A DNA stretch of 32,000 nt from Microcystis aeruginosa NIES-2549 (lineage in GTDB: Bacteria; Cyanobacteriota; Cyanobacteriia; Cyanobacteriales; Microcystaceae). This document shows positions 6,698 through 29,977 of the stretch, in pieces. The number at the start of each line of letters is the position of its first letter. The stretch's first letter is position 1. The translations under genes and the position numbers were made by a program. Below the pieces are notes generated by a model. The model saw only the letters and a program-made list of their open reading frames with translations. It was not told where the DNA came from and did no database searches. The DNA lies in contig NZ_CP011304.1 in assembly GCF_000981785.2 (NCBI RefSeq), positions 3,690,001-3,722,000 of the forward strand. The letters run 5' to 3'.

Positions 6698-6739
6698 CAG
6701 TTACCAGTTACCAGTTACCAGTGATCGGTTATCAGTGTC
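6698..6739. repeat. heptamer tandem repeat (STRR-like)
   Basis: Six consecutive 7-nt units follow the ppk stop: CAGTTAC x3, then CAGTGAT, CGGTTAT, CAGTGTC. Confidence 0.85.
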
Positions 6740-9694: not shown

Positions 9695-10019
9695 TCAAAA
9701 TTTTCACTAATGCTAAACTAATTATCGCCCCAACCGCCATAGCTGCAATTCCCCATTGACAAAAAGCCATAACCTCTAATGAAACCGAGCAAAAACAGTT
9801 TCTGGGACAATATGTGCATTCCCCCCGACGAGAATTGCCCTTGTCACCCATCGGCAGGGATGGATATTTCGCCATCAAAATTTCCCCACTCACCCTTGCT
9901 GAATTTGGGTATGTTAAAGAATAGGACAAAATTAACTTCTTGGTTAGAATAGGCAGTCATGCAAGAGACTTCGGCCGTGAGACGGCGGGCTATGGCTACA
10001 GAAGGGAGACGAATCAGCT

Positions 10020-13000
10020 ATGGTAAAACTAGAGGAACTTACTCGTGGCTCTATTGTTAACGGAATATTACCGAACCAAGCTGTCACCGTCATCGAGGCC
10101 AAGTGGCATGGCAGCGACACGGTAGAACTGACCTACAAAGATACCAACGGACAACCCTACACAGAACTGCTCTTTCGATACCGAGAGCCAACCCTAGAGA
10201 TTCTCACCGAAGGAAGACCGTGGGGTTTCGATGGCGATGGAGCTTTGCTGCGCCTAGTTTCCGAAGCCCACCGCATCCGGTTGGCCTACCTGTTTGACCC
10301 GCTTCTAGCCGTCCATACCTCTCTGGTGGAACCACTCCCTCATCAAATCACTGCTGTTTACGGTGAGATGCTCGATCGCCAACCTCTGCGCTTTTTGTTG
10401 GCCGATGACCCCGGGGCCGGGAAAACCATCATGGCGGGATTGTTAATTCGAGAACTCCTGATTCGAGGTGACTTAGCGCGCTGCCTGATCGTTTGTCCAG
10501 GCAGCCTCGCAGTGCAATGGCAAGACGAACTACATAACAAATTTCACCTTCCCTTCGATATCCTCACCAACGACCGCCTCGAAACGGCCCGCACCGGCAA
10601 CGCCTTCGCCGAAATGGGTCTGGTCATTGCTAGGCTTGATAAACTCAGCCGTAATCAAGACCTCCAGAAGAAACTCCAGCAGACTGATTGGGATCTGATT
10701 ATCTGCGACGAGGCCCACAAGATGTCCGCTTCGTTTTTCGGTGGGGATATTAAGGAAACAAAGCGTTACAAATTGGGCAAACTCCTCTCTAGCATTACCC
10801 GCCACTTCCTGCTGATGACGGCGACTCCCCACAACGGCAAAGAAGAAGACTTTCAGTTATTCTTAGCCCTACTTGATGGCGACCGCTTTGAGGGACGATT
10901 CCGCGACGGAGTTCCTGTTTCAGATACTTCCGACCTGATGCGCCGCATGGTCAAAGAAGAACTGCTCAAGTTTGACGGCAAGCCACTTTTCCCCGAAAGA
11001 ATCGCTCACACGGTCACTTACCCCCTCTCCGACCAAGAAGCGATCCTCTACAGTCGAGTCACCGAGTATGTGCGCGAAGAATTTAACCGAGCCGAAGCCC
11101 TGGCCAATAACGGGCGCAAGGGGACAGTCGGCTTTGCCCTCACCATTTTGCAACGCCGCCTCGCCTCCTCTCCGGAAGCCATCTATCAATCCTTGAAACG
11201 GCGACGAGAGCGGCTAGAAAAGCGACTCCGAGAAGAAGAATTGCTCAAGCGAGGCCAGTCGCTGGAGATGGAATTTGCCACCGTCCTTGACCAAGACGAC
11301 ATCGATGACGACTTTGAGGATACCGATAGCAGCGAGCGGGAGGCCACGGTCGAGGAGGTGGTCGATCAGGCTACAGCAGCCCGTACCATTGCCGAACTAC
11401 AGCTTGAAATCGCCCTGCTCAAAGAGCTTGAAGACTTAGCCAATACCGTCCGACGGAGCGGAAAAGACCGTAAGTGGGAAGAGTTTTCCCATCTTTTTCA
11501 GGATCAGGCGGAGATGTTCGATGCGGGAGGATACCGCCGCAAAATTGTCGTCTTCACCGAACATAGAGACACCCTCAACTACCTGAAAGAGCGGATCGGC
11601 ACACTCCTTGGCAACCCAGAAACTGTTGTCACCATTCACGGTGGCATGGGTCGGGAAGACCGCAAAAAAGCCGAAGAAGGCTTCAAGCAAGACGTAGGAG
11701 TACAGGTACTTCTGGCCACCGATGCCGCCGGAGAGGGGATCAACCTGCAACGAGCGCATCTCATGGTCAATTATGACCTACCCTGGAACCCAAACCGCCT
11801 AGAACAGCGATTCGGTCGCATTCACCGGATTGGACAGACCGAGGTTTGTCATCTCTGGAATTTGGTGGCCCACGAAACCCGCGAGGGAGATGTCTATCGG
11901 ACACTCCTCGAAAAACTCGAAGCCGAACAAAAAGCTTTAGGCGGACGGGTCTTTGATGTATTAGGTAAAGCCATTGCGGGAAAAGAATTGCGCGAACTTC
12001 TCATCAAAGCCATCCGCTACGGCGATCGCCCAGATATAAAAGCACGCTTAAACCAGGTCATCTCTGAAAAGCTCGATCAAGAGAGACTAAGGGAATTGCT
12101 GCAAGAACGCGCCCTAGCACGCGATTCGATGGATGCTTCCAAAGTTCAGAAAATTCGAGAAGATATGGAGCGAGCCGAAGCCAGAAGGTTACAGCCGCAC
12201 TTCATCGCCGCATTTTTCCTCGAAGCCTTCCAACGCTTAGGCGGCACCCTACGCCAGCGAGAGCCAAAGCGATACGAGATCACCAACGTCCCCGCCGTTA
12301 TCCGTAACAGAGACCGCTTTTTCGGGATAGGAGAGCCAATTCTCAAACGCTATGAGCGCATCTGTTTTGATAAAGAACTGATTAGTATTCCGGGGAAACC
12401 CGTTGCTACCTTTGTCTGTCCCGGCCATCCCCTGTTAGATGCCACTATCGATCTTGTCTTGGAACGGCATCGGGAATTACTCAGACGGGGAGCTATCCTA
12501 GTTGATGACAGTGATCCGAGCGAGGAAATTCGGGCGCTGGTGTACTTAGAACACGCCATTCAAGATGCTCGGCTAAATCCCGATGGTAGGAGGCGGGTGG
12601 TGTCGCGGCGGATGCAGTATGTGGAACTATTTGAACCACAGAGACACAGAGGACACGGAGAGAGGGATGCTGGGTATGCCCCTTATCTGGATTATCGTCC
12701 TTTGGCGGAGGAGGAGCGGGTGCTGGTGGAGCCTATCATTGATTCTCTGGATATTGGTAATGAGATTGAGAAGAAGGCTACCAGTTATGCGATCGCCAAC
12801 CTTGTCTCTTCCCATCTTCGGGAGGTACGGCAGCGCAAGGAAGAGCTAATTGAAAAGACCATTGCGGCAGTTAAAGACCGCCTGACCAAGGAGATCAACC
12901 ACTGGGACCATCGGGCGAACCAGTTGCGCCTACAGGAAGAAGCGGGAAAGACCAATGCCCGGATAAATTCCAACAAAGCCCGAGCCAGAGCCGATGAACT

Positions 13001-13544
13001 ACAAACGCGGTTGCAAAAGCGCTTGTCTGAATTGGAGCAGGAGCGCCAGCTTTCCCCTTTGCCGCCGGTGGTGGTGGGGGCAGCCCTCGTCGTACCGGGC
13101 GGACTGTTAGGAAGACTTTTAGGCAAGCCAATGTTTGCCAGAGACACTAAGCGCATCGAGCAGCTGGCGATGGCGGCAGTCATGGCGACCGAAAAAGCAT
13201 TAGGCTACGAGCCGCGGGATGTGAGCGCCGAGAAGTGCGGCTATGACATCGAATCGCGCAGGACCGGAACAGGCCGCTTACGGTTTATCGAAGTCAAGGG
13301 TAGAGTAGAAGGAGCCGATACGGTGACGGTGACTAAAAACGAGATTTGCCTAGCGTTGAACAAGTCCGAGAGTTTCTTACTTGCTTTAGTTTCCGTTTCT
13401 CCGTCAGAGGAAGTGCGGGTGAGATATGTGCGCCAGCCATTCCAGAGGGAACCGGATTTTGGGGTGTGTAGTGTTAATTATAATTGGAGAGAGTTATGGG
13501 ACAGGGGGGATATGATTGAACCACAAAGGCACAAAGGACACTAA
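10020..13544 (+). CDS. SNF2/DEAH-family helicase with C-terminal PD-(D/E)XK-like (DUF3883-type) domain; helicase component of an Hma-type defence locus
   Basis: 1174 aa. Helicase motifs: motif I GAGKT (10413-10427), motif II DEAH (10707-10718), motif III LMTATPHNG, motif VI QRFGRIHRIGQ. A coiled-coil region follows. The C-terminal module carries GYDIES...RFIEVKG (D at 13245-13247, EVK at 13290-13298). The last 8 codons and the stop (EPQRHKGH*) come from the first unit of the downstream repeat array. Confidence 0.93.
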   Translation: MVKLEELTRGSIVNGILPNQAVTVIEAKWHGSDTVELTYKDTNGQPYTELLFRYREPTLEILTEGRPWGFDGDGALLRLVSEAHRIRLAYLFDPLLAVHTSLVEPLPHQITAVYGEMLDRQPLRFLLADDPGAGKTIMAGLLIRELLIRGDLARCLIVCPGSLAVQWQDELHNKFHLPFDILTNDRLETARTGNAFAEMGLVIARLDKLSRNQDLQKKLQQTDWDLIICDEAHKMSASFFGGDIKETKRYKLGKLLSSITRHFLLMTATPHNGKEEDFQLFLALLDGDRFEGRFRDGVPVSDTSDLMRRMVKEELLKFDGKPLFPERIAHTVTYPLSDQEAILYSRVTEYVREEFNRAEALANNGRKGTVGFALTILQRRLASSPEAIYQSLKRRRERLEKRLREEELLKRGQSLEMEFATVLDQDDIDDDFEDTDSSEREATVEEVVDQATAARTIAELQLEIALLKELEDLANTVRRSGKDRKWEEFSHLFQDQAEMFDAGGYRRKIVVFTEHRDTLNYLKERIGTLLGNPETVVTIHGGMGREDRKKAEEGFKQDVGVQVLLATDAAGEGINLQRAHLMVNYDLPWNPNRLEQRFGRIHRIGQTEVCHLWNLVAHETREGDVYRTLLEKLEAEQKALGGRVFDVLGKAIAGKELRELLIKAIRYGDRPDIKARLNQVISEKLDQERLRELLQERALARDSMDASKVQKIREDMERAEARRLQPHFIAAFFLEAFQRLGGTLRQREPKRYEITNVPAVIRNRDRFFGIGEPILKRYERICFDKELISIPGKPVATFVCPGHPLLDATIDLVLERHRELLRRGAILVDDSDPSEEIRALVYLEHAIQDARLNPDGRRRVVSRRMQYVELFEPQRHRGHGERDAGYAPYLDYRPLAEEERVLVEPIIDSLDIGNEIEKKATSYAIANLVSSHLREVRQRKEELIEKTIAAVKDRLTKEINHWDHRANQLRLQEEAGKTNARINSNKARARADELQTRLQKRLSELEQERQLSPLPPVVVGAALVVPGGLLGRLLGKPMFARDTKRIEQLAMAAVMATEKALGYEPRDVSAEKCGYDIESRRTGTGRLRFIEVKGRVEGADTVTVTKNEICLALNKSESFLLALVSVSPSEEVRVRYVRQPFQREPDFGVCSVNYNWRELWDRGDMIEPQRHKGH
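12633..12656 (+). repeat. degenerate copy of the AACCACAAAGGCACAAAGGACAC repeat inside the helicase CDS, in frame
   Basis: GAACCACAGAGACACAGAGGACAC compared with the array unit GAACCACAAAGGCACAAAGGACAC (13518-13541). It is translated EPQRHRGH, close to the EPQRHKGH that ends the same protein. Confidence 0.7.
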
Positions 13545-13749
13545 GGGGATTAACCACAAAGGCACGAAGGACACTAAGGGGATTAACCACAAAGGCACAA
13601 AGGACACTAAGGGGATTAACCACAAAGGCACGAAGGACACGAAGATAGAAGAACCACAAAGGCACAAAGGACACGAAGATAGAAGAACCACAAAGGCACG
13701 AAGGACACGAAGATAGAAGAACCACAAAGGCACGAAGGACACTAAGGTT
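13518..13749 (+). repeat. tandem array, 7 units of 30-34 bp, forward orientation (core AACCACAAAGGCAC(A/G)AAGGACAC)
   Basis: Units start at 13518, 13552, 13585, 13618, 13652, 13686 and 13720. There are two linker types: TAAGGGGATT in units 1-3 and GAAGATAGAAG in units 4-6. The array begins inside the helicase 3' end and stops exactly at the ATG of the GxxExxY gene (13750). Confidence 0.95.
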
Positions 13750-14130
13750 ATGGATGAGAGGGCTAATGATTTATCTAAGGAGATTATTGGGGCGGCGATC
13801 GCTGTTCATCGGGAGTTGGGGCCAGGACTATTGGAGTCGGCCTATGAGGCCTGTTTAGAGTACGAGTTATTGGATAGGGGGATAGCGGTGGAGCGTCAAG
13901 TTCCTCAATCAGTGATTTATCGCGGTGTTAAACTTGATTGTGGTTATCGTCTCGATCTATTGGTGGAAAATCTGGTTATTGTCGAACTGAAAACTGTTGA
14001 ACAACTTACCCCCATTCACGAGGCCCAGTTGTTAACCTATCTCAAATTACGCCGGCTTTGGCTAGGATTACTGATTAATTTTAACGTTCCCGTTCTCAAA
14101 CAAGGCATCAAACGCCTTGTCAACAATTAA
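13750..14130 (+). CDS. GxxExxY-family protein (PD-(D/E)XK nuclease-fold, PDDEXK_3-like)
   Basis: 126 aa. It has the eponymous motif GPGLLESAY (G-x-x-E-x-x-Y) and a D...ExK-like core ([16 protein letters not shown]). The C-terminus (LLINFN) is typical of this family as I recall it. Confidence 0.85.
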
Positions 14131-14135
14131 TCTTT

Positions 14136-14192
14136 GTGTCCTTTGTGCCTTTGTGGTTCCTCAATCTTCGTGTCCTTTGTGCCTTTGTGGTT
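14136..14192 (-). repeat. two units of the same repeat in reverse orientation
   Basis: GTGTCCTTTGTGCCTTTGTGGTT occurs at 14136-14158 and 14170-14192. It is the reverse complement of the core in the 13518-13749 array. The repeat starts 5 nt after the GxxExxY stop and ends 12 nt before the methylase ATG. Confidence 0.95.
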
Positions 14193-14204
14193 CTTTTATC
14201 TCCC

Positions 14205-17198
14205 ATGACCTACCGTAAAAAACTCATTGAAGTGGCCCTACCCCTAGAAGCCATTAACGTCGAATCGGCATACGAAAAGAAACCAGGTATTGGTTCCCAT
14301 CCTAGAGGAGTTCATCTCTGGTGGGCGCGGCGACCTTTAGCAACTTGTCGCGCCGTTCTGTGGGCTTCATTAGTGGATGACCCGTCGAGTTGGCCAGATA
14401 AATTTCCCACCGAGGAGGAGCAGAATCGGGAACGACAGAGATTGTTCGATATATTAGGAAGAATTCATATTGAAACAGATAAGAAGGGAAACACGAAGCA
14501 GGTCGTAAAGGGACTGGTATCGTGGAAGGAAATCAATAAACCCACTTCCAACGTATTAGACGCGGCACAGCGAGAAATTGCGCGCTGTTTAGCTTGGGAA
14601 CGTGGGGAAGAACCCCCCACTAAACCGGATGCTATACGCGACTATATCGCTAAATATGCCCCCTCCGCCTATGACCCGTTTTGTGGTGGTGGTTCCATTC
14701 CTTTGGAGGCCCAGCGCTTGGGTTTGCAGGCCCACGGTAGTGACCTCAATCCGGTGGCGGTGTTGATTACTAAGGCTTTGATCGAGATTCCGCCCAAGTT
14801 TAAGGATAAACCGCCGGTTAATCCCGATTCTCGCCAAAAACAAAAGATTTCTTCCTGGGAAGGGGCCCAGGGATTGGCCGCAGATGTGCGCTATTACGGT
14901 CAGTGGATGCGGGATGAGGCTTTTAAAAGGATTGGCTATCTTTATCCGATGGTGGAAACCAACCACAAAGGCACAAAGGACACTAAGGTGATTGCTTGGC
15001 TTTGGGCCAGGACGGTGAAGTGTCCTAATCCGGCCTGTGGCTGTCAGATGCCTCTGGTCCGCAGTTTTCAGCTTTCGACGAAGAAGGGTAAGGAGGCTTG
15101 GGTTGAGCCTTTTGTGGGAGATGTTAACACTGAGGGGGATTTTAACCACAAAGGCACTGAGGACACAAAGGGGGATGATTTTGGTGTCTCTGGGGTGCCA
15201 CCCAAAATCCGCTTTGAGGTGAAGACGGGTAAGGGTACGGCCCCGGAATCTCCCAAGACTGGTCGAGGAGCTACGTTTCGGTGTTTAGCCTGTGGTCAGC
15301 CAGTTAACGATAAGCATATTAAGGCAGAAGGAATGGCGGGACGGATGGATGCTCAACTCATGGCAATTGTTGCTGAGGGGAAAGGTGGACGGATTTATCT
15401 TTCTCCTAACTCTGAACATGAAGCAATCGCTAAGAGTGCAAAACCAACATGGTATCCAGATGCTCAAATAAGCGATGATAGGCGGTCAATGTTCACACCG
15501 CTTTATGGACTGACGCATTTTCATCATCTTTTTACTCCCCGTCAACTCGTCGCCCTCACTACTTTTAGCGATTTAGTAAGTGAAGCCAGAGAAAAAATTA
15601 AAGCTGATGCAGTAGCCGCAGGAATCCCTGATGATGATTTACCTCTTAATGATGGGGGAATAGGCGCGACGGCTTATGCGGATGCAGTGGCGACTTATTT
15701 GGCATTTGTGATTGATCGATGCGCTGACTTTAACTGTTCTGTAACGAGGTGGGCATCTAGTAATGAAAAAATAATGAATTTATTTGCCCGCCAAGCAATC
15801 CCTATGGTTTGGGATTATTCAGAAGCTAATATTCTAGAGAAGGTGGTTGGAGGATTTGAGACGTGCAATGAATATGTTAGTGACTGTATCGCAATATTGC
15901 CGACAACAATCACATCTAAGGGAGAAGTGAATCAAAAAGATGCTTCCCAAAACAACTGTGATTTGTCGCTATGTCCCGTAATATCAACCGATCCACCATA
16001 TTATGACAATATAAGCTATGCAGATCTTTCAGACTTTTTTTACGTCTGGTTGCGCCGTTCTTTAAATTCAATCTATCCCAATCTTTTCAGCACTTTACTC
16101 GTTCCCAAAGCACCCGAATTAGTCGCTACTCCCTATCGTTTTGGGGGTGATAAGAAAAAAGCTCAATCCTTTTTTGAGGAGGGCTTAGGCAAAGCATTCG
16201 GACGAATGAATGCGATGGCTCACTCAGATTACCCTCTGACGGTTTACTACGCTTTCAAGCAGTCAGAAACCAAAGACAGCGATGATGACGCAGGAAATAC
16301 TTTTGTATCATCCACCGGGTGGGAAACAATGCTCGAAGGTTTGATTAAATCCGATTTTTCGATTGGCGGCACATGGCCAATGAGAAGTGAACAAAATGAA
16401 AGGATGGTAGCAACTGGCACAAATGCCCTCGCCTCATCTATAGTCCTCGTGTGTCGTCCCCGTCCCGCCGACGCGCCCAAAGCCAGCCGCCGGCAATTCC
16501 TCAACGAACTGAAGCGAGACCTTCCCCAAGCCCTAAAACTGCTGCAACAGGGCAATATTGCCCCCGTTGACCTCGCCCAAGCCAGTATTGGGCCCGGGAT
16601 GGCAATCTACTCCAAATACGCCGCTATCCTCGAATCTAACGGCTCCTCCATGGGTGTTCGCACGGCCCTGCAACTGATTAACCAGATTCTCGACGAATTT
16701 CTCACCGAACAAGAAGGAGAATTTGATAGTGATACCCGTTGGGCGCTGACTTGGTTCGAGCAGTACCAATTCAACGAAGGACTATATGGCAATGCAGAAA
16801 CCCTCTCCAAAGCCAAAAACACCAGTATTCAGGGCATGGTTGAAGCTGGCATACTAGAAGCAAAAGCCGGTAAAGTGCGACTACTCAAGCGCGAAGATCT
16901 TAAAACCGATTGGAAGCCAGAAAAAGATGAGCGGACACCCATCTGGGAAATCACCCAACACCTCATCCATACCCTCGATAAAAACGGCGAAACCGGAGCC
17001 GCAGAACTCTTGGCCAAACTAGGAAACAGAGCCGATTTAGCCAAAGAACTCGCCTATAGACTTTATAGCCTCTGTGACAGAAAAGGTTGGACCCAAGAAG
17101 CCATAGCCTACAATAGCCTCGTCACCTCTTGGCCAGAAATCACCCGCCTAGCCAACGAATATAAACCCTCCCCCGAACAACTATCCTTTTCTTTGTGA
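14205..17198 (+). CDS. DUF1156-type DNA methyltransferase (DPPY, N6-adenine/N4-cytosine class) with split Zn ribbon; methylase component of the Hma-type locus
   Basis: The start is moved to ATG 14205 (MTYRKKLIEVALPLEAINVESAYEK is the characteristic DUF1156 N-terminus). The 23 codons upstream in the ORF track are repeat sequence. Motif I DPFCGGGS at 14673-14696. Cys pairs CPNPAC and CLAC form the Zn ribbon. Motif IV DPPY at 15990-16001. The stop TGA (17196-17198) lies in the first unit of the downstream array. Confidence 0.9.
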   Translation: MTYRKKLIEVALPLEAINVESAYEKKPGIGSHPRGVHLWWARRPLATCRAVLWASLVDDPSSWPDKFPTEEEQNRERQRLFDILGRIHIETDKKGNTKQVVKGLVSWKEINKPTSNVLDAAQREIARCLAWERGEEPPTKPDAIRDYIAKYAPSAYDPFCGGGSIPLEAQRLGLQAHGSDLNPVAVLITKALIEIPPKFKDKPPVNPDSRQKQKISSWEGAQGLAADVRYYGQWMRDEAFKRIGYLYPMVETNHKGTKDTKVIAWLWARTVKCPNPACGCQMPLVRSFQLSTKKGKEAWVEPFVGDVNTEGDFNHKGTEDTKGDDFGVSGVPPKIRFEVKTGKGTAPESPKTGRGATFRCLACGQPVNDKHIKAEGMAGRMDAQLMAIVAEGKGGRIYLSPNSEHEAIAKSAKPTWYPDAQISDDRRSMFTPLYGLTHFHHLFTPRQLVALTTFSDLVSEAREKIKADAVAAGIPDDDLPLNDGGIGATAYADAVATYLAFVIDRCADFNCSVTRWASSNEKIMNLFARQAIPMVWDYSEANILEKVVGGFETCNEYVSDCIAILPTTITSKGEVNQKDASQNNCDLSLCPVISTDPPYYDNISYADLSDFFYVWLRRSLNSIYPNLFSTLLVPKAPELVATPYRFGGDKKKAQSFFEEGLGKAFGRMNAMAHSDYPLTVYYAFKQSETKDSDDDAGNTFVSSTGWETMLEGLIKSDFSIGGTWPMRSEQNERMVATGTNALASSIVLVCRPRPADAPKASRRQFLNELKRDLPQALKLLQQGNIAPVDLAQASIGPGMAIYSKYAAILESNGSSMGVRTALQLINQILDEFLTEQEGEFDSDTRWALTWFEQYQFNEGLYGNAETLSKAKNTSIQGMVEAGILEAKAGKVRLLKREDLKTDWKPEKDERTPIWEITQHLIHTLDKNGETGAAELLAKLGNRADLAKELAYRLYSLCDRKGWTQEAIAYNSLVTSWPEITRLANEYKPSPEQLSFSL
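14961..14988 (+). repeat. perfect repeat unit inside the methylase CDS, in frame
   Basis: AACCACAAAGGCACAAAGGACACTAAGG is 28/28 identical to array unit 13585-13612. It is read as NHKGTKDTK within ...[25 protein letters not shown]..., a different frame from that used at the helicase C-terminus. Confidence 0.9.
15131..15177 (+). repeat. second repeat-derived segment (linker plus unit) inside the methylase CDS, in frame
   Basis: TGAGGGGGATTTTAACCACAAAGGCACTGAGGACACAAAGGGGGAT resembles linker TAAGGGGATT plus the core. It is read as EGDFNHKGTEDTKGD and lies between the two Cys pairs of the Zn ribbon. Confidence 0.8.
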
Positions 17199-17700
17199 CC
17201 TTTGTGCCTTTGTGGTTAATCCCCCTTCGTGTTCTTTGTGCCTTTGTGGTAAATCCCCCTTCGTGACCTTCGTGCCTTTGTGGTAAATCCCCCTTCGTGA
17301 CCTTTGTGCCTTTGTGGTAAATCCCCCTTCGTGTTCTTTGTGCCTTTGTGGTTCCCCAAACTTTGTGACCTTTGTGCCTTTGTGGTTCAAAATCCCCCTT
17401 CGTGTTCTTTGTGGTTCAAAATCCCCCTTTGTGCCTTTGTGGTTCAAAATCCCCCTTCGTGACCTTTGTGCCTTTGTGGTTCAAAATCCCCCTTCGTGAC
17501 CTTTGTGCCTTTGTGGTAAATCCCCCTTCGTGACCTTTGTGCCTTTGTGGTAAATCCCCCTTCGTGTTCTTTGTGCCTTTGTGGTTCCCCAAACTTTGTG
17601 ACCTTTGTGCCTTTGTGGTTCAAAATCCCCCTTCGTGTTCTTTGTGGTTCAAAATCCCCCTTCGTGTTCTTTGTGGTTCAAAATCCCCCTTCGTGTGGTT
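17191..17700 (-). repeat. tandem array of about 15-16 units (28-37 bp), reverse orientation, with a 233-bp higher-order duplication
   Basis: Units have the form TTCGTG(AC/TT)CTTTGTGCCTTTGTGGT plus linker AAATCCCCC, TCAAAATCCCCC or TCCCCAAAC. Some units are shortened (TTCGTGTTCTTTGTGGTTCAAAATCCCCC). Segment 17260-17427 recurs at 17493-17660 with a single mismatch. Confidence 0.95.
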
Positions 17701-17748
17701 ATCTCTCCCAAATTGAGGCATTATAAAAATAACTCCTCATCAAATCCC

Positions 17749-20700
17749 ATGGCAATCAGCAATCGTGAACGAGTCGGACGCGCCCTAGATTTCCTCAGAG
17801 AGGGACTATACCCCTTCATTGAACGAGAAATGAAAGCAAGCTACGGCCAGAAGTGGCTCGCCGTGGCCTTAAGTTGCCTCCCTGAGAGCTATACGATCCG
17901 CAGGACAGGTGATGCCGTCCTCAAGGAAGACGTTTCGGCCCTGCTAATTGTCCTCTGGGAGCAGTGGAATGAAGTTTTTAAGAAAACCCTAGGCAGAAGC
18001 GATCGCTCTCTGGCCAGTGAACTAAGAGATGTCCGCAACGCCTGGGCCCATAACGATGCTTTCAGCCTCGACGATGCTTACCGGGCTTTTGATAGCATCT
18101 CTCGCCTACTGAGTTCGGTTTCCGCCGACACCCAAGAGGTGGAGAAGCAGAAGCAAGAAATCCTCAGACTTCGCTTTGAAGAACAGGCCCGGCGAGAGAC
18201 AAGGCGCCAAGCGATCGCACCGACGGAGGGACAACCGATGTCGGGATTGAAACCCTGGCGGGAAATCGCCACCCCCCACCCCGATGTGGCTTCCGGACGC
18301 TTCCAACAGGCCGAATTTGCCGCCGACCTCTGGCAAGTCTATCTCGATGAAGGCTCTGACGAATACCGCGACCCGACGGAATTTTTCCGCCGCACCTACC
18401 TCACCGAAGGACTCAAGCAACTTCTGACCAATGCCCTGCTGCGTCTGAGTGGTAATGGCGGAGAGCCGGTGATTGAACTGCAAACTAACTTCGGTGGCGG
18501 AAAAACCCACGCCATGCTGGCCCTCTACCATCTGTGCAATGCTTTGGCGATCGAAGATCTTCCCGGTATGGAGTCGATATTCCAAGCTCTGAACATTAAA
18601 AAACCCCCCGAAAATGTCAACATTGCTGTTCTGGTCGGCACTAAAGTCCAGCCTAGTGGCATCCCCCCCTACAAACCGGAACACAACAAGCAAAATCGCC
18701 CAGAAATCAAGACCCTGTGGGGAGAAATAGCTTGGCAACTCGGCGGCGCTGAGGGCTACGCTCTGGTTCGCAACGCCGATGAAACTTCCACTAATCCGGG
18801 AGACGCACTCAAAATATTGTTTAATCGTTTTTCACCCTGTTTGATCTTGATCGACGAATGGGTTGCCTATGCCAGGCAATTGCACGACAAGAACGATATT
18901 GCCGGCGGTAGTTTTGACACCCAGTTTACTTTTGCCCAAACCCTGAGCGAGTCGGCGAAAAATGCCCAGCAGACGCTTTTGGCTGTGAGTATCCCCGCTT
19001 CGGAAACCGTTGACGAAAAAACCGGAGAAGTACGGACTACAGATGTTGAAACCGGAGGAGAACGGGGTACAGAGGCCCTAGACCGCCTTAAAAATGCGAT
19101 CGGGCGCATCCAATCCCCTTGGCGACCCGCTAGTGCCGAGGAGAGTTTCGAGATCGTCCGCCGCCGTCTCTTTCAAACCACTACTGACCCGCAACTATTT
19201 GTCGCACGGGATGCGGTTATTAAAGCCTTCTCCGAGATGTATCGCACCCAGGCCCAGGAATTTCCTAGCGAATGCCTGGAGGCTGACTACAGACGCCGCC
19301 TGCGGGAAGCCTATCCCATTCACCCAGAATTTTTCGATCGCCTCTACTCCGACTGGTCAACCCTCGATAAATTCCAGCGCACCAGGGGTGTTTTGCGACT
19401 CATGGCCAAGGTCATCCATTCCCTTTGGGAGCGAGAGGACAAGAGCTTGTTGATCATGCCGTCCCACGTCCCGATGGATGATGCTCAGGTTCAGTCGGAG
19501 TTAACCCGCTACTTAGATGATAATTGGGTTCCGATCATCGAAAAGGATGTGGATGGCCCCAATTCTCTGCCCCTCGACATCGATCGCCAAAATTCCAACC
19601 TGGGACGCTATTCTGCTTGCCGTCGGGTTACGCGCACTATTTACCTTGGCTCGGCCCCCACGATTCGGGCTGCTAACCGAGGACTAGAAGATAAGAGGAT
19701 AAAACTCGGTTGCGTGCAGCCGGGGGAGACTGTAGCCACTTTTGGTGATGCCCTACGGCGGCTAACAGATCGGGCCACCTACCTCTACATCGATGGCAAC
19801 CGCTACTGGATTTCCAATCAGCCGAACGTCACCCGCACAGCCCAAGATCGGGCAAACCTGCTCTTTGAGGAGCGGTATAAAGTGACAGAAGAAATCGTCC
19901 GGCGCTTGAAGTCCGACCAGCAGCGGGGCGAGTTTGGAGGGATTCATATTGCCCCAGAATCTACTGCCGATATTCCTGATGATCCTAATCTCGGCGTGCG
20001 GCTCGTCGTTCTCGGTCCTGGGCAACCCCACAGCAAATCCGCCGAAGATAGCCCCGCTCGGCGTTTAGTGGCGGAAATTCTCAATCAGAGAGGGGGTAGC
20101 CCCCGCTATTACAAGAATACGCTTGTATTTGTTGCCGCTGACAAATCGAACTTGGAAAACTTAGAGAAGAACGTCGCCGGATATCTTGCCTGGAATTCAA
20201 TTGTGGCGGATCAGGAAACCCTCAATCTCGATGTTTCTCAGAATAAACAGGCGATCACTAAGCGCGATCAAGCCGACAAGGACGTAAGCCTGATCCTCAA
20301 CCAAACCTATAAGTGGCTGCTGGTTCCGGAGCAACCCGACCCCCAGAAAGGCATCCACTGGACTGATACCAACGCTCAGGGGGACGATTCGCCTATCGAT
20401 CGAGCCAGCCGCAAACTGGTTCATGAGGGGCAACTGATTACCCATTACTCTGGTGACAACCTGCGGATGGAGGCCCTCGACAAATACCTGTGGCGTTCAA
20501 CTAACCACATCGATCTGAAACGTCTGTGGGAGTACCTAGCGCAGTATCTTTACTTGCCCCGTCTCAAGAACCCGGATGTTCTGCTTCAGGCTGTGCGGGA
20601 GGGATTGGTCTCAATGCTTGTGCAGGAAAATTTTGCTTATGCAGAGGGCTGGGACGAGGCAAGGCAAAGATATACTGGTCTTGTCATCCTTCGGGATATC

Positions 20701-21141
20701 AACCCGAGTATCAGCAGTCACAGCCTTCTGGTTAAGCCTGATGTAGCTATGGGGCAGCTAGAGGCCGAGAAACCAGCTAACCCCCCGACCACTGCCGAGA
20801 CTGATTCGGTTATCTCCAGTGACCGTGATCGGCCGCCATCTTTACCCTCTGGTGTTGGATTAACTGTGACAGAGACTCCCGGTGATCTGGTTGAGAAAAA
20901 GCTGGTTCTGCGGAGGTTTTACGGCAGTGTTGAGATCGATCCCCTGCGAATTAATCGAGACGCTTCCGCGATCGCTGACGAGGTAATCCAGCATCTCACC
21001 CGACTCAATGGGGCCAGCGTTAAGGTAACACTGGAGATCGAGGCTGATATTCCTGATGGAACACCCGATGATGTGGTGCGGACGGTGACGGAGAATTGTC
21101 GGACACTAAAATTTAATAATCAGTCGTTTGAGCAGGAGTGA
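17749..21141 (+). CDS. DUF499-type P-loop ATPase with N-terminal Swt1-like HEPN domain; ATPase component of the Hma-type locus
   Basis: The start is moved to ATG 17749 (MAISNRERVGRALDFLREGLYPFIEREMK). The 48 codons upstream in the ORF track are repeat-array translation. HEPN Rx4H motif RNAWAH at 18034-18051. Walker A NFGGGKTH (GGGKT at 18493-18507). Walker B CLILIDEW. About 1130 aa, as expected for DUF499 proteins. Confidence 0.88.
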   Translation: MAISNRERVGRALDFLREGLYPFIEREMKASYGQKWLAVALSCLPESYTIRRTGDAVLKEDVSALLIVLWEQWNEVFKKTLGRSDRSLASELRDVRNAWAHNDAFSLDDAYRAFDSISRLLSSVSADTQEVEKQKQEILRLRFEEQARRETRRQAIAPTEGQPMSGLKPWREIATPHPDVASGRFQQAEFAADLWQVYLDEGSDEYRDPTEFFRRTYLTEGLKQLLTNALLRLSGNGGEPVIELQTNFGGGKTHAMLALYHLCNALAIEDLPGMESIFQALNIKKPPENVNIAVLVGTKVQPSGIPPYKPEHNKQNRPEIKTLWGEIAWQLGGAEGYALVRNADETSTNPGDALKILFNRFSPCLILIDEWVAYARQLHDKNDIAGGSFDTQFTFAQTLSESAKNAQQTLLAVSIPASETVDEKTGEVRTTDVETGGERGTEALDRLKNAIGRIQSPWRPASAEESFEIVRRRLFQTTTDPQLFVARDAVIKAFSEMYRTQAQEFPSECLEADYRRRLREAYPIHPEFFDRLYSDWSTLDKFQRTRGVLRLMAKVIHSLWEREDKSLLIMPSHVPMDDAQVQSELTRYLDDNWVPIIEKDVDGPNSLPLDIDRQNSNLGRYSACRRVTRTIYLGSAPTIRAANRGLEDKRIKLGCVQPGETVATFGDALRRLTDRATYLYIDGNRYWISNQPNVTRTAQDRANLLFEERYKVTEEIVRRLKSDQQRGEFGGIHIAPESTADIPDDPNLGVRLVVLGPGQPHSKSAEDSPARRLVAEILNQRGGSPRYYKNTLVFVAADKSNLENLEKNVAGYLAWNSIVADQETLNLDVSQNKQAITKRDQADKDVSLILNQTYKWLLVPEQPDPQKGIHWTDTNAQGDDSPIDRASRKLVHEGQLITHYSGDNLRMEALDKYLWRSTNHIDLKRLWEYLAQYLYLPRLKNPDVLLQAVREGLVSMLVQENFAYAEGWDEARQRYTGLVILRDINPSISSHSLLVKPDVAMGQLEAEKPANPPTTAETDSVISSDRDRPPSLPSGVGLTVTETPGDLVEKKLVLRRFYGSVEIDPLRINRDASAIADEVIQHLTRLNGASVKVTLEIEADIPDGTPDDVVRTVTENCRTLKFNNQSFEQE

Positions 21142-21237
21142 ACGAACCCCTTGCTTTTTGCCTCATCTCCACAAGCAATTTAAATCGCGAGCAGAGCTTA
21201 TCCAACAAGGTTTTGAGATTTATTCAGCCAGCCCTAT

Positions 21238-21525
21238 TTAACGATCGCTGCCGTTTTCCTGTACCGATCCTAACTGTTGACGCACATCATCGATCGCTAG
21301 ATTTAACTGGGCAATTTTATCTTCTAAACTGCGGCGGGCCATTTCCATGCCTTCCTCGGGAGTCAAGCGCCCATGGCGGATATCTTCCAAAAAGGACTGA
21401 TTATCACCAGCTGCTAAACTGCGACGGCTGCGATTAGCCAACACTGTCCCCAAAACACCGCCCACTAAACCACCGACAATCGCACCAGCCAAAAAACCGC
21501 CCGCAAACCCATCTCGCTGACTCAT
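21238..21525 (-). CDS. YtxH-domain-like small membrane-associated protein
   Basis: 95 aa. It has a glycine-rich hydrophobic N-terminus (GFAGGFLAGAIVGGLVGGVLGTVLA) followed by a charged helical region, the typical YtxH layout. Confidence 0.6.
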   Translation of the reverse strand: MSQRDGFAGGFLAGAIVGGLVGGVLGTVLANRSRRSLAAGDNQSFLEDIRHGRLTPEEGMEMARRSLEDKIAQLNLAIDDVRQQLGSVQENGSDR

Positions 21526-21539
21526 AATCCGTTTTTCTC

Positions 21540-22193
21540 CTAATAGGTTCCAAAAGCTCGATCGCCGGCATCGCCCAACCCTGGCACGATGTAACCGCGG
21601 CTATTTAGTCCTTCATCGATAATAGCCGTATAGATGTTCAAGCTGGGATAATTCTGACTCAATTTCTGTAAAGCGGGCGGGGCAGCCACCACCGAAATCA
21701 GGCGAATTAGGGCAGGATCAACGCCTCTGCTGGTAATTTCTGCCATTGCCGTTGAAATTGATCCCCCCGTGGCTAACATCGGTTCAAGAATTAACACTCT
21801 CGTGGCCGGATCAAAACTAGCCGGTAATTTATTTAAATAACAACTCGCCTCTAGGGTTTCCTCATTTCTGGCTAAACCGAGGTGATAGGTACTAGCTAGG
21901 GGTAAAAGACTTTGCGCCCCTTCCAACAGGGCTAATCCTGCGCGTAAAATTGGGACTACGGCGATCGGTACGCTAGGATCGATAAAAGTAGCGGGACATT
22001 CCGCTAGAGGGGTTTTAACGCTAGTTTCCAGGGTCGGCAGCCATTGCCGCGCCGCTTCGTAGGTTAACCAGCGCCCTAGTTCCGTCATCGCTGTTTTAAA
22101 CAGTACCGGGGGGGTATTTTGATCGCGGGCGATCGCCAGCCAATGCTTAACCAGAGGGTGTTCGGGAACATAGACGCGCAGTTGTAAAACCAT
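21540..22193 (-). CDS. upp: uracil phosphoribosyltransferase
   Basis: The start is moved to ATG 22193-22191 (MVLQLRVYVPEHPLVKHWL...), giving 217 aa. It has the PRPP-binding motif LILEPMLATGGS and the C-terminal YIVPGLGDAGDRAFGT. The upstream 34 codons in the ORF track have no UPRT counterpart. Confidence 0.93.
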   Translation of the reverse strand: MVLQLRVYVPEHPLVKHWLAIARDQNTPPVLFKTAMTELGRWLTYEAARQWLPTLETSVKTPLAECPATFIDPSVPIAVVPILRAGLALLEGAQSLLPLASTYHLGLARNEETLEASCYLNKLPASFDPATRVLILEPMLATGGSISTAMAEITSRGVDPALIRLISVVAAPPALQKLSQNYPSLNIYTAIIDEGLNSRGYIVPGLGDAGDRAFGTY

Positions 22194-23762: not shown

Positions 23763-23806
23763 AGGAGTCAGGAGTCTCCGAGTCAGGAGTCAGGAGGGGA
23801 AGTCAG
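23763..23806. repeat. heptamer tandem repeat (AGGAGTC type)
   Basis: AGGAGTC at 23763-23769, 23770-23776 and 23785-23791, then AGGAGGG and GAAGTCA, interrupted by TCCGAGTC. Confidence 0.8.
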
Positions 23807-23882: not shown

Positions 23883-23910
23883 CTTTGTGTCCTTTGTGTC
23901 TTTGTGGTTC
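23883..23910 (-). repeat. solo copy of the island repeat, outside the island
   Basis: CTTTGTGTCCTTTGTGTCTTTGTGGTTC has the same core as 14136-14158 with one substitution. It lies in the mdh / methyltransferase intergenic region. Confidence 0.85.
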
Positions 23911-25141: not shown

Positions 25142-25143
25142 TT

Positions 25144-25178
25144 CAGTTATCAGTTTTCAGGTTTCAGTTATCAGTGAC
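25144..25178. repeat. heptamer tandem repeat (CAGTTAT type)
   Basis: Five units immediately upstream of the methyltransferase ATG: CAGTTAT, CAGTTTT, CAGGTTT, CAGTTAT, CAGTGAC. Confidence 0.85.
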
Positions 25179-28701: not shown

Positions 28702-28956
28702 TAAGTGGCTGAGTGGAATTAAATATAAGATGAACGTAGGTTGGGTTGAAGCATGAAACCCAACGCCAGATTATGTTACGCTACCGCTAACCCATCCTAC
28801 AAATAATTGTGTCTCCCTACTTAGAACCAAAGAGTAAGTGGGTGGGTGGAATTAAATATAAGATGAACGTAAGTTGGGTTGAAGCATGAAACCCAACGGC
28901 CGATTATGTTACGCTACCGCTAACCCATCCTACAAATAATTGTGCCTCCCTACTTA
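28702..28956. repeat. two direct copies of a ~122-bp element (period 133 bp), each with an internal hairpin
   Basis: 28713-28823 and 28846-28956 are 111-bp stretches differing at only a few positions (e.g. GTAGG/GTAAG, GCCAG/GGCCG, GTGTC/GTGCC). The similarity extends about 11 bp further left. Each copy contains GTTGGGTT-N9-AACCCAAC (copy 1: 28740-28764). Confidence 0.9.
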
Positions 28957-29933: not shown

Positions 29934-29949
29934 TCCCAAATCCTCAGAA

Positions 29950-29977
29950 CAGGAGTCAGGAGACAGGAGATAGGAGA
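29950..29977. repeat. heptamer tandem repeat (CAGGAGA type)
   Basis: CAGGAGT, CAGGAGA, CAGGAGA, TAGGAGA, followed by a CCCCACA/CTTCCCA-type run up to the gyrA stop. Confidence 0.8.

What the first reader, a model, noticed from the sequence alone, without database searches (positions are those of the whole stretch)
17749..18200. HEPN (Rx4H) RNase-type domain fused to the N-terminus of the DUF499 ATPase
Seen: the first ~150 aa form a helical region ending in ELRDVRNAWAHNDAF, with R-N-A-W-A-H at 18034-18051. This fits the Rx4-6H catalytic signature of HEPN domains. The P-loop (GGGKT, 18493-18507) starts about 150 aa later. Established: HEPN domains are metal-independent RNases in Cas13, Csm6/Csx1, RnlA, Abi and toxin systems, and a Swt1-like HEPN clade was reported fused to DUF499-type NTPases. 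Inference: the locus may couple DNA restriction or modification to an NTP-gated RNase, giving an abortive-infection-like output. That would be unusual for an R-M-like system.
Basis: partly seen in the sequence, partly recalled or inferred. Interest (0 to 1): 0.65.

Follow-up and report, generated by a model that had tools for sequence, protein, structure and literature searches.

The report
Known HEPN-fused ATPase of Hma defence
The first 125 residues of this Microcystis defence ATPase are a real, well-conserved Swt1-family HEPN (RNase-type) domain, but this exact fusion was described in 2013, occurs in over half of such systems, and is already named in public annotation, so it is ordinary.

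Summary
ORF 17749-21141 (1130 aa) carries RNAWAH at 18034-18051 and GGGKT at 18493-18507. Pfam matches aa 11-125 to HEPN_Swt1 over the whole profile (E 1.3e-39), followed by DUF499.

The three large genes are a complete Hma system, also called a Type-1 BREX-related system. They are a SNF2 helicase with a NOV_C nuclease, a DUF1156 N6-adenine methylase, and the DUF499 ATPase. They sit in a GC-rich island of a Microcystis genome.

R96 and H101 are both kept in 313 of 320 homologues. An AlphaFold model (pLDDT about 91) puts the motif at the end of one helix and the start of the loop to the next, as described for canonical HEPN domains.

Foldseek found no significant match to any solved structure, so the 3-D superposition test is inconclusive.

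Anantharaman et al. 2013 described this architecture (Ava_2192). A 2026 survey found it in 1370 of 2446 taxa with Type-1 systems. NCBI already names these proteins "Swt1 family HEPN domain-containing protein".

RNase activity has not been tested for any member, as far as the held library shows. The likely role is a latent back-up RNase switched on by ATPase assembly; this is inference.

Verdict: real, already known, low interest.

The parts
10020..13544 (+). hmaA: SNF2/DEAD-type helicase with a C-terminal NOV_C (DUF3883) PD-(D/E)XK nuclease domain. It is the presumed primary DNA effector.
   Evidence: Pfam SNF2-rel_dom, Helicase_C and NOV_C (aa 1046-1136, E 3.7e-22). PADLOC HmaA at 1707 bits, full length.
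13750..14130 (+). Small PDDEXK_3 (PD-(D/E)XK superfamily) ORF inserted between hmaA and hmaB. It is not a core Hma gene. Inverted arrays of a ~34-nt repeat flank it.
   Evidence: Pfam PF13366 at E 7.5e-44. No PADLOC hit. Inverted arms of 72 nt, 93% complementary. 100% aa identity in Microcystis loci L001, L005 and L006.
14205..17198 (+). hmaB: DUF1156 N6-adenine DNA methyltransferase. The mechanical ORF starts at GTG 14136, but its first 23 codons read through the repeat, so the likely start is M24 at 14205.
   Evidence: Pfam DUF1156. PADLOC HmaB at 1211 bits, aligned from aa 24. Motif I DPFCGGGS and motif IV DPPY are visible in the translation.
17191..17696 (+). Tandem array (about 13.5 copies of a ~34-nt unit, CTTCGTGACCTTTGTGCCTTTGTGGTAAATCCCC) that fills the gap between hmaB and hmaC.
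   Evidence: TRF, sequence and pattern count (23 matches against 0 expected).
17749..21141 (+). hmaC: HEPN_Swt1 + DUF499 AAA+/STAND-like ATPase, 1130 aa.
   Evidence: PADLOC HmaC at 1082 bits over aa 167-1128. Full-length homologues of 1100-1155 aa are named 'Swt1 family HEPN domain-containing protein'.
17779..18123 (+). Swt1-family HEPN domain (aa 11-125).
   Evidence: Pfam PF18731 at E 1.3e-39, profile 1-115/115. AF2 helices 5-42, 54-77 (kinked), 83-100 and 107-123.
18034..18051 (+). R96-N-A-W-A-H101, the Rx4H motif, with the typical polar residue (N) after the R.
   Evidence: Sequence. R in 321/322 and H in 314/320 homologues. The motif sits at the end of a helix that runs into the loop before helix 107-123, as described for canonical HEPN.
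18133..18216 (+). Long linker helix (aa 129-156) between the HEPN domain and the HmaC core.
   Evidence: AF2 model, H129-156.
18247..21138 (+). Canonical HmaC/DUF499 core (aa 167-1130). The segment at aa 143-230 (KPWREI..DVASGR..QQAEFAADLWQV) is the most conserved part, and the last ~230 aa are the most variable.
   Evidence: The PADLOC HmaC model begins at aa 167.
18493..18507 (+). Walker A, GGGKT (aa 249-253).
18841..18858 (+). Walker B, LILIDE (aa 365-370).

Best explanation
The feature is the N-terminal Swt1-family HEPN domain of HmaC, the DUF499 AAA+/STAND-like ATPase of a complete Hma system. The same system is also called a Type-1 DUF499-centred BREX-related system. It lies in a horizontally acquired island of a Microcystis genome.

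Shown here:
- the domain identity;
- the intact, strongly conserved R-N-x-W-A-H motif;
- intact Walker A and B motifs;
- the conserved three-gene context.

Inferred mechanism, step by step:
- HmaB methylates host DNA at N6-adenine.
- HmaC, like BrxC, scans and recognises unmodified invader DNA through its variable C-terminal domains, and assembles in an ATP-dependent way.
- HmaA (SNF2 helicase plus PD-(D/E)XK nuclease) is the primary DNA effector.
ATP-driven oligomerisation of HmaC would therefore bring the N-terminal HEPN domains together through the long linker helix.
- That would switch on a metal-independent RNase that cuts cellular and/or phage RNA.
- The RNase would serve as a back-up, abortive-infection-type output when DNA restriction fails or is inhibited.
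For: Identity:
- Pfam HEPN_Swt1 at E 1.3e-39 over the full profile, plus DUF499.
- PADLOC HmaA, HmaB and HmaC at 1707, 1211 and 1082 bits.
- Sub-threshold matches of family members to other families named or described as HEPN: DUF4145 in 21 of 38, HEPN_RiboL-PSP in 8 of 38, and HEPN_Apea for the window protein.

Catalytic competence:
- R and H are both present in 313 of 320 homologous domains. N97, W99, A100 and E91 are near-invariant.
- The polar residue after the R, and the motif's place at the end of a helix running into a loop, match the published description of active HEPN sites.

Integral part of the protein:
- Across phyla, HEPN identity (48-66%) tracks that of the ATPase (56-77%) and the middle region (50-69%).
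- 118 of the 120 closest relatives of the ATPase part alone carry the domain.

Context:
- hmaA and hmaB are present next to hmaC in related loci from Cyanobacteria, Chloroflexota and Actinomycetota.
- The island is 48-54% GC against 41-44% in the flanks.

Literature:
- The same architecture and the same functional hypothesis appear in PMC3710099 and PMC12839542.
- Anti-phage activity of an Hma system is shown in PMC11232893, for HmaA only.
Against: - No member of the HEPN-DUF499 group has had RNase activity, toxicity or an abortive-infection phenotype tested in any paper I could find.
- The one Hma system tested experimentally has a 958-aa HmaC without HEPN, and only HmaA was needed for defence against T4.
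- Foldseek searches of two confident models found no significant match to any solved HEPN structure. The best E was 0.25-0.5. The HEPN toxin HepT appeared only at rank 17, with E 1.7 and TM 0.31. A profile search of PDB sequences found nothing.
- Activation by oligomerisation is an analogy. Multimers could not be modelled here.
- Eukaryotic Swt1, which names the family, has an inactive HEPN.
Confidence: 0.6

Rival explanations
1. The HEPN domain is an active but specific RNase, for example a tRNA anticodon nuclease like PrrC or RloC. HmaA/HmaB would hold it latent, and it would be released only when a phage anti-restriction factor disables the restriction arm. It would not be a general suicide RNase gated simply by ATPase assembly.
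For: - PrrC and RloC are listed among HEPN RNases whose conserved H (and, for PrrC, the R) is essential. That PrrC pairs an NTPase with a HEPN nuclease and is embedded in a type I R-M locus is my background knowledge.
- The motif is strictly conserved.
- Anantharaman et al. note that HEPN domains in R-M systems fuse to helicase, ATPase or REase subunits.
Against: - The domain order is reversed: HEPN is N-terminal here.
- The ATPase is of a different class (DUF499, ORC/STAND-like), and no PrrC-type family appears in the Pfam or PADLOC results.
- There are no data on substrate.
Confidence: 0.2
2. The HEPN domain is not catalytic in vivo. It would act as an RNA- or nucleic-acid-binding sensor, or as a dimerisation module that regulates the ATPase, as proposed for the inactive HEPN of eukaryotic Swt1.
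For: - The family's namesake is thought to be inactive and to bind RNA.
- No activity has been shown for any HmaC.
- About 44% of Type-1 systems do without the domain.
Against: - Inactive HEPNs typically lose the Rx4-6H motif. Here R and H are both kept in 313 of 320 sequences, together with the polar N after the R.
- Anantharaman et al. score the Ava_2192 group as 'Active'.
Confidence: 0.12
3. The match is fortuitous. The N-terminus would be a generic helical extension that happens to contain an R-x4-H.
For: - The bare Rx4-6H pattern occurs 6 times in this protein against 4.2 expected.
- Foldseek returns only generic four-helix bundles, none significant.
Against: - The profile match is full-length at E 1.3e-39.
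- 2152 cluster representatives match at E<=1e-3.
- The motif residues are near-invariant.
Confidence: 0.02

Closest known systems
Ava_2192-type HEPN-DUF499 ATPase of Anabaena variabilis (Anantharaman et al. 2013, Biol Direct 8:15), now 'Type-1 BR system, HEPN-fused variant' (NAR 2026, gkag035)
   Same: Same domain order: an N-terminal Swt1/Abi2-clade HEPN with an intact Rx4H, then an AAA+ ATPase that overlaps DUF499. Same operon partners: a SNF2 helicase fused to a DUF3883/NOV_C REase, and an N6-adenine methylase. It is also cyanobacterial.
   Different: Nothing substantive. This copy is in Microcystis. It has a PDDEXK_3 ORF inserted between hmaA and hmaB, and Microcystis-specific tandem repeats at the gene junctions.
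Hma system (HmaA-HmaB-HmaC) of Halomonas meridiana (Microb Biotechnol 2024, e14524); PADLOC Hma (Payne et al. 2021)
   Same: The three core genes match the PADLOC HmaA/B/C models over their full length. Foreign genes are inserted inside the operon, as in about 66% of hma loci.
   Different: The Halomonas HmaC is 958 aa and has no HEPN domain, and only HmaA was shown to be needed against T4. The PADLOC HmaC model starts at aa 167 of the window protein, so it does not include the HEPN domain.
PrrC / RloC anticodon nucleases linked to R-M systems
   Same: An NTPase domain and a HEPN RNase lie on one polypeptide, and the conserved H of the motif is essential for activity. That PrrC is functionally coupled to an R-M system and acts as a latent second-line defence is my background knowledge.
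   Different: HEPN is C-terminal in PrrC and RloC, and the NTPase is of another class. Neither Pfam nor PADLOC gives any match to those families here. This is a working analogy, not membership.
Type 3 BREX (BrxC, PglXI, BrxHII)
   Same: The ATPase, methylase and helicase cores are homologous according to the 2026 survey. PADLOC gives secondary hits of hmaA to BrxHI/BrxHII and of hmaB to PglXI.
   Different: None of the scanned ORFs of the window is a PglZ. DUF499 ATPases form clades separate from BrxC. The HEPN fusion is specific to the BR Type-1 ATPase.
Eukaryotic Swt1 (PIN + HEPN dyad)
   Same: It belongs to the same Pfam family, PF18731.
   Different: The Swt1 HEPN has lost the catalytic motif, is fused to a PIN RNase, and works in nuclear pre-mRNA surveillance. 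The bacterial version keeps R and H.

Membership tests
HEPN superfamily, Swt1-like family (Pfam PF18731) | Profile match above the curated threshold across the domain | tested here: met
   135.5 bits against a cut-off of 27.5, E 1.3e-39, profile 1-115/115, aa 11-125. All 38 aligned homologues also match.
HEPN superfamily, Swt1-like family (Pfam PF18731) | Rx4-6H motif with a polar residue after the R, conserved in relatives | tested here: met
   R96-N-A-W-A-H101. R in 321/322, N in 314, H in 314/320, and both R and H in 313/320.
HEPN superfamily, Swt1-like family (Pfam PF18731) | [quoted passage not shown] | tested here: met
   In the AF2 models (pLDDT 90.7 and 90.8) the motif closes a helix (83-100, or 73-100 in the trimmed model), followed by loop 101-106 and helix 107-123. 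This matches the published description.
HEPN superfamily, Swt1-like family (Pfam PF18731) | 3-D similarity to solved HEPN structures | tested here: inconclusive
   Foldseek against PDB gave a best E of 0.25 (full model) and 0.49 (trimmed model). All hits were generic four-helix bundles, and the HEPN toxin HepT (6m6w_D, 7bxo) reached only E 1.7-2.1 and TM about 0.31. BFVD gave nothing, and a PDB sequence-profile search gave nothing.
HEPN superfamily, Swt1-like family (Pfam PF18731) | Metal-independent endoribonuclease activity that depends on the R and H | not testable with these tools
   This needs biochemistry. No published test for HEPN-DUF499 proteins was found.
Hma / Type-1 DUF499-centred BREX-related system | A cluster of a SNF2 helicase (with a C-terminal PD-(D/E)XK NOV_C/DUF3883 domain), a DUF1156 N6-methylase and a DUF499 ATPase | tested here: met
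   Pfam. PADLOC HmaA, HmaB and HmaC matched full-length at 1707, 1211 and 1082 bits. All three are on the + strand at 10020-21141.
Hma / Type-1 DUF499-centred BREX-related system | ATPase with intact Walker A and Walker B motifs | tested here: met
   GGGKT at aa 249-253 and LILIDE at aa 365-370.
Hma / Type-1 DUF499-centred BREX-related system | The gene neighbourhood is conserved in relatives | tested here: met
   hmaB and/or hmaA lie next to the HEPN-hmaC gene in most of 24 related loci from several phyla, wherever the contig is long enough.
Hma / Type-1 DUF499-centred BREX-related system | Protection against phage | not testable with these tools
   Shown only for a Halomonas system whose HmaC lacks HEPN.
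BREX proper | Presence of PglZ and of a BrxC-clade ATPase | tested here: not met
   None of the 17 ORFs scanned has a PglZ domain. The ATPase matches HmaC/DUF499, not BrxC, in PADLOC.
PrrC/RloC anticodon nucleases | An N-terminal ABC-type NTPase followed by a C-terminal HEPN anticodon-nuclease domain | tested here: not met
   The order is reversed, with HEPN at aa 11-125 and the P-loop at aa 249. There is no match to such families.

The most novel reading that the evidence does not exclude
In HEPN-bearing Hma systems the RNase, not the HmaA DNA nuclease, could be the main output. HmaC would read the methylation state or the shape of invading DNA. Its ATP-driven assembly would pair the N-terminal HEPN domains into an RNase that may be specific for one substrate, such as a tRNA. 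The system would then be a DNA-sensing, RNA-cutting abortive-infection device built on an R-M chassis. Nothing here excludes this, because no HEPN-HmaC has been assayed.
Probability: 0.15. Interest if true: 0.5.

Novelty: already known. Interest (0 to 1): 0.15.

Why it matters
For genome annotation this is routine. The protein belongs to a family that NCBI already names 'Swt1 family HEPN domain-containing protein', and the operon is a catalogued defence system (Hma, or Type-1 BR).

The remaining value is experimental. The HEPN-fused form is the majority form of a very widespread defence system (26 phyla according to PADLOC; 1370 taxa in the 2026 survey). Yet its predicted RNase has apparently never been assayed. 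Showing that an ORC/STAND-like ATPase of an R-M-like system gates an RNase would clarify how BREX-related systems combine DNA restriction with a suicide back-up.

The Microcystis copy itself adds only local colour: a GC-rich island, repeat arrays, and a methylase whose central region (probably its target-recognition part) varies between strains.

Tried and rejected
1. Foldseek on the 166-aa model against PDB and BFVD, and on a trimmed 128-aa model against PDB. There were no significant hits, only generic four-helix bundles. I did not count the weak HepT hits (E about 2) as support.

2. A profile search of PDB sequences with the family alignment. The only hit was a designed protein at E 0.82.

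3. One search suggested that HEPN is far more conserved than the rest of HmaC. This was my own artefact: the 'rest' query was translated one base out of frame. The corrected analysis shows HEPN evolving at about the same rate as the ATPase and the middle domains.

4. The first homologue search, with the 166-aa N-terminus, returned only proteins of 95-290 aa. That might have meant that stand-alone HEPN genes are common. The alignment shows most are contig-end fragments or frameshifted N-termini that run on into the HmaC core sequence. The two long-contig cases I examined are decayed remnants. I therefore took the architecture statistics from the query with the ATPase part alone.

5. An Rfam scan of the whole window found no known RNA family, so the intergenic repeats are not a catalogued RNA.

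6. The promoter/terminator scan of the hmaB-hmaC gap found no + strand promoter-like or terminator-like site. Whether hmaC is co-transcribed cannot be decided from this.

7. I considered an Ex3[KR] motif. E7-x3-[KR]11 is well conserved, but it lies at the start of the first helix, not in helix 2 as described for canonical HEPNs. I make no claim about it.
Full report
**Observation.** The ORF list and translation show an ATG at 17749 that opens a 1130-aa reading frame ending at 21141. ELRDVRNAWAHNDAF is residues 91-105. A Walker B motif (LILIDE, aa 365-370) follows. The longer TTG-initiated ORF from 17605 only reads through an upstream tandem repeat. Homologues start at the MAISN... methionine, so 17749 is the real start.

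**Is it more than chance?** The bare pattern R-x4-6-H is not evidence. It occurs six times in this protein, against 4.2 expected from composition. What matters is the following:
- Pfam HEPN_Swt1 (PF18731) matches aa 11-125 over the whole profile (1-115 of 115), at E 1.3e-39 and 135.5 bits against a gathering score of 27.5. DUF499 follows at aa 288-905.
- An exhaustive phmmer search with aa 1-142 found 2152 cluster representatives at E<=1e-3 and 948 at E<=1e-10.
R96 is kept in 321 of 322, H101 in 314 of 320, and both in 313 of 320. N97, W99, A100, E91, D61, R112 and D115 are also near-invariant.
- The polar residue directly after the arginine is typical of catalytically competent HEPN motifs (Anantharaman et al. 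2013, read).

**Structure.** AlphaFold2 with the family alignment gave confident all-helical models. The 166-aa model has pLDDT 90.7 and pTM 0.81. The trimmed 128-aa model has pLDDT 90.8 and pTM 0.85.
- The helices are 5-42, 54-77 (kinked), 83-100 (merged with the preceding helix, as 73-100, in the trimmed model) and 107-123. A long linker helix follows at 129-156.
- The Rx4H motif sits at the C-terminal end of a helix and runs into the loop before the next one. [quoted passage not shown]
Foldseek against the PDB gave no hit better than E 0.25 (full model) or 0.49 (trimmed model).
- The hits were generic four-helix bundles. The HEPN toxin HepT (6m6w_D, 7bxo) appeared only at E 1.7-2.1 with TM about 0.31.
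- BFVD gave nothing, and a PDB sequence-profile search gave nothing.
- I record the 3-D test as inconclusive. It does not contradict a four-helix bundle, but it does not independently establish a HEPN fold.
- Some independent sequence support comes from recurrent sub-threshold matches of family members to other families named or described as HEPN: DUF4145 in 21 of 38, HEPN_RiboL-PSP in 8 of 38, and HEPN_Apea for the window protein.

**Context.** PADLOC models identify three genes:
- 10020-13544 is HmaA, at 1707 bits. It is a SNF2 helicase with a C-terminal NOV_C/DUF3883 PD-(D/E)XK domain.
- 14136-17198 is HmaB, at 1211 bits. It is a DUF1156 methylase, with motif I DPFCGGGS and motif IV DPPY visible.
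- 17749-21141 is HmaC, at 1082 bits.

The HmaC model aligns only from aa 167. The HEPN domain and its linker helix are therefore an N-terminal add-on to the canonical HmaC.

None of the other scanned ORFs is a PglZ or another defence gene. The flanks are cyanobacterial housekeeping genes: psbA-like, ppk, a flavodiiron protein, upp, mdh and gyrA. The island is 48-54% GC against 41-44% in the flanks, which fits horizontal acquisition.

The closest loci are Microcystis, at 93-98% identity. Related loci from other Cyanobacteria, Chloroflexota and Actinomycetota keep hmaA and hmaB beside a HEPN-bearing hmaC. Gene order varies, and foreign insertions are frequent between hmaB and hmaC.

**Evolutionary behaviour of the domain.** My first comparison suggested that HEPN is much better conserved than the rest of HmaC. 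That was an error: the query for the rest of the protein was one base out of frame.

The corrected analysis gives these identities to the 19 full-length relatives from other genera (L003, L004 and L007-L024, leaving out the contig-truncated L020):

| Segment | Identity |
|---|---|
| HEPN (aa 1-142) | 48-66% |
| ATPase (aa 231-560) | 56-77% |
| Middle region (aa 561-900) | 50-69% |
| Segment aa 143-230 | 67-89% (most conserved) |
| Last 230 aa | 33-61% (most variable) |

HEPN therefore evolves as an integral, constrained part of the protein. It is neither a fast-evolving appendage nor an unusually frozen one. When I searched with the ATPase part alone (aa 167-1130), 118 of the 120 best hits carried PF18731 plus PF04465. 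The two exceptions lie on contigs of about 3 kb.

**Comparison with what is known.** This architecture is in the literature.
- Table 1 of Anantharaman et al. [quoted passage not shown] Active.'.
- Payne et al. 2021 named the three-gene system Hma and found 1638 instances in 26 phyla.
- The 2026 NAR survey renames it the Type-1 DUF499-centred BREX-related system. [quoted passage not shown]
- NCBI annotation already calls these proteins 'Swt1 family HEPN domain-containing protein', including in Microcystis aeruginosa PCC 7806.

The experimental side is thin. The only tested Hma system (Halomonas meridiana) has a 958-aa HmaC without HEPN, and only HmaA was shown to be required. I found no paper that tests RNase activity of a HEPN-HmaC.

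**Mechanism.**

Shown:
- the domain identity;
- intact and conserved catalytic-type residues;
- intact Walker motifs;
- a complete and conserved operon.

Inferred, by homology with BREX-type systems and by analogy with HEPN RNases that act as dimers (the dimer requirement is my background knowledge, not from a paper read here):
- HmaB marks self DNA.
- HmaC recognises unmodified DNA through its variable C-terminal modules and assembles with ATP.
- HmaA cuts DNA.
- Assembly of HmaC brings the N-terminal HEPN domains, held on a long linker helix, into an active pair that degrades RNA. This would act as a back-up or abortive output.

I give about 0.95 to the identity and about 0.5-0.6 to this mechanism. 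The rivals are:
- a PrrC-like specific anticodon nuclease released when restriction is inhibited (0.2);
- a non-catalytic sensor or dimerisation role as in eukaryotic Swt1 (0.12), which the 98% retention of R and H argues against;
- a chance resemblance (0.02).

**Verdict.** The feature is an ordinary member of a family and a system that are already described and already annotated. Interest is low, at 0.15. The only open point is the untested RNase activity of this widespread variant.

**Side observations.**
- The operon junctions carry Microcystis-specific arrays of a ~34-nt repeat. The repeat also occurs in frame inside hmaB.
- A PDDEXK_3 ORF sits between inverted arrays of that repeat.
- The central part of hmaB, probably its target-recognition region, differs strongly between strains.

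These are listed under Noticed in passing.

Noticed in passing
window 13518-13747 (-), 14129-14193 (+), 17191-17696 (+); also 23891-23908: Every intergenic junction of the hma operon holds tandem arrays of one ~34-nt unit (CTTCGTGACCTTTGTGCCTTTGTGGTAAATCCCC). The 18-nt core has 23 matches in the window against 0 expected. The unit sits at the same junctions in four other Microcystis loci, is absent from L003 and L004, and occurs once in L007. Copy number varies: the hmaB-hmaC gap is 551 nt here and 891-1006 nt in L001, L002, L005 and L006. There is no Rfam match. Its function is unknown (mobile repeat, regulatory element or recombination substrate).
   Followed up: partly
window 13750-14130 (+), arms 13643-13714 / 14130-14201: A 126-aa PDDEXK_3 (PF13366) ORF is inserted between hmaA and hmaB. 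Inverted arrays of the repeat bracket it (72-nt arms, 93% complementary). Its protein is 100% identical in three other Microcystis strains, although the neighbouring hmaB is only about 80% identical. It looks like a discrete, possibly mobile, cassette.
   Followed up: partly
window 14961-14987 and 15144-15170 (inside hmaB): The same repeat occurs in frame inside the methylase gene, where it is translated as NHKGTKDTK and NHKGTEDTK. Strain L005 has an extra partial copy (FNHKGTEGD). The repeat has therefore been incorporated into coding sequence, with copy-number variation.
   Followed up: partly
window 14136-14204: The mechanical GVG-type start of hmaB, GTG at 14136, reads through the repeat ([23 protein letters not shown]). 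The PADLOC and Pfam models begin at M24, so the likely true start is 14205.
   Followed up: yes
window about 15200-16400 (hmaB aa about 350-750), compared with L001, L005 and L006: Between Microcystis strains, hmaB is 96-100% identical in aa about 150-300 and 80-100% beyond aa about 750, but only 38-76% in most of the central region. L006 rises to 90-96% around aa 650-750. This pattern suggests swapping of the target-recognition region, and so different methylation specificities.
   Followed up: partly
window 20449-21138 (HmaC aa 901-1130): The C-terminal 230 aa of HmaC are the most variable segment. They are 33-61% identical across genera and 87-92% within Microcystis, where the ATPase is 96-100% identical. 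This fits the 'hypervariable C-terminal RRM-fold domain' of the 2026 BREX survey.
   Followed up: partly
window 10001-22000: The hma island is 48-54% GC, against 41-44% in the flanking housekeeping DNA, which suggests horizontal acquisition. No integrase or transposase was seen among the ORFs scanned.
   Followed up: partly
L027/L028 8001-8513; L029 8001-8675: These are decayed relatives. In L027 and L028, a 170-aa HEPN_Swt1-only ORF sits in a truncated hma locus (shortened helicase and DUF1156 genes), with an MNT/HEPN toxin-antitoxin pair inserted just upstream. In L029, a 224-aa ORF joins the HEPN domain directly to the last ~55 aa of HmaC, with no hmaA or hmaB nearby.
   Followed up: partly
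window 21138-21437 (+): A 99-aa ORF overlaps the hmaC stop codon. It has no Pfam or PADLOC match and no tblastn match in any related locus, including Microcystis loci that extend downstream. It is probably not a gene.
   Followed up: partly
window 28702-28956; 6698-6737, 25143-25175, 29949-29977, 23763-23796: A 133-nt unit is repeated 1.9 times upstream of the 29008 ORF. Several short heptamer tandem repeats lie in intergenic regions and resemble cyanobacterial STRR-type repeats.
   Followed up: no
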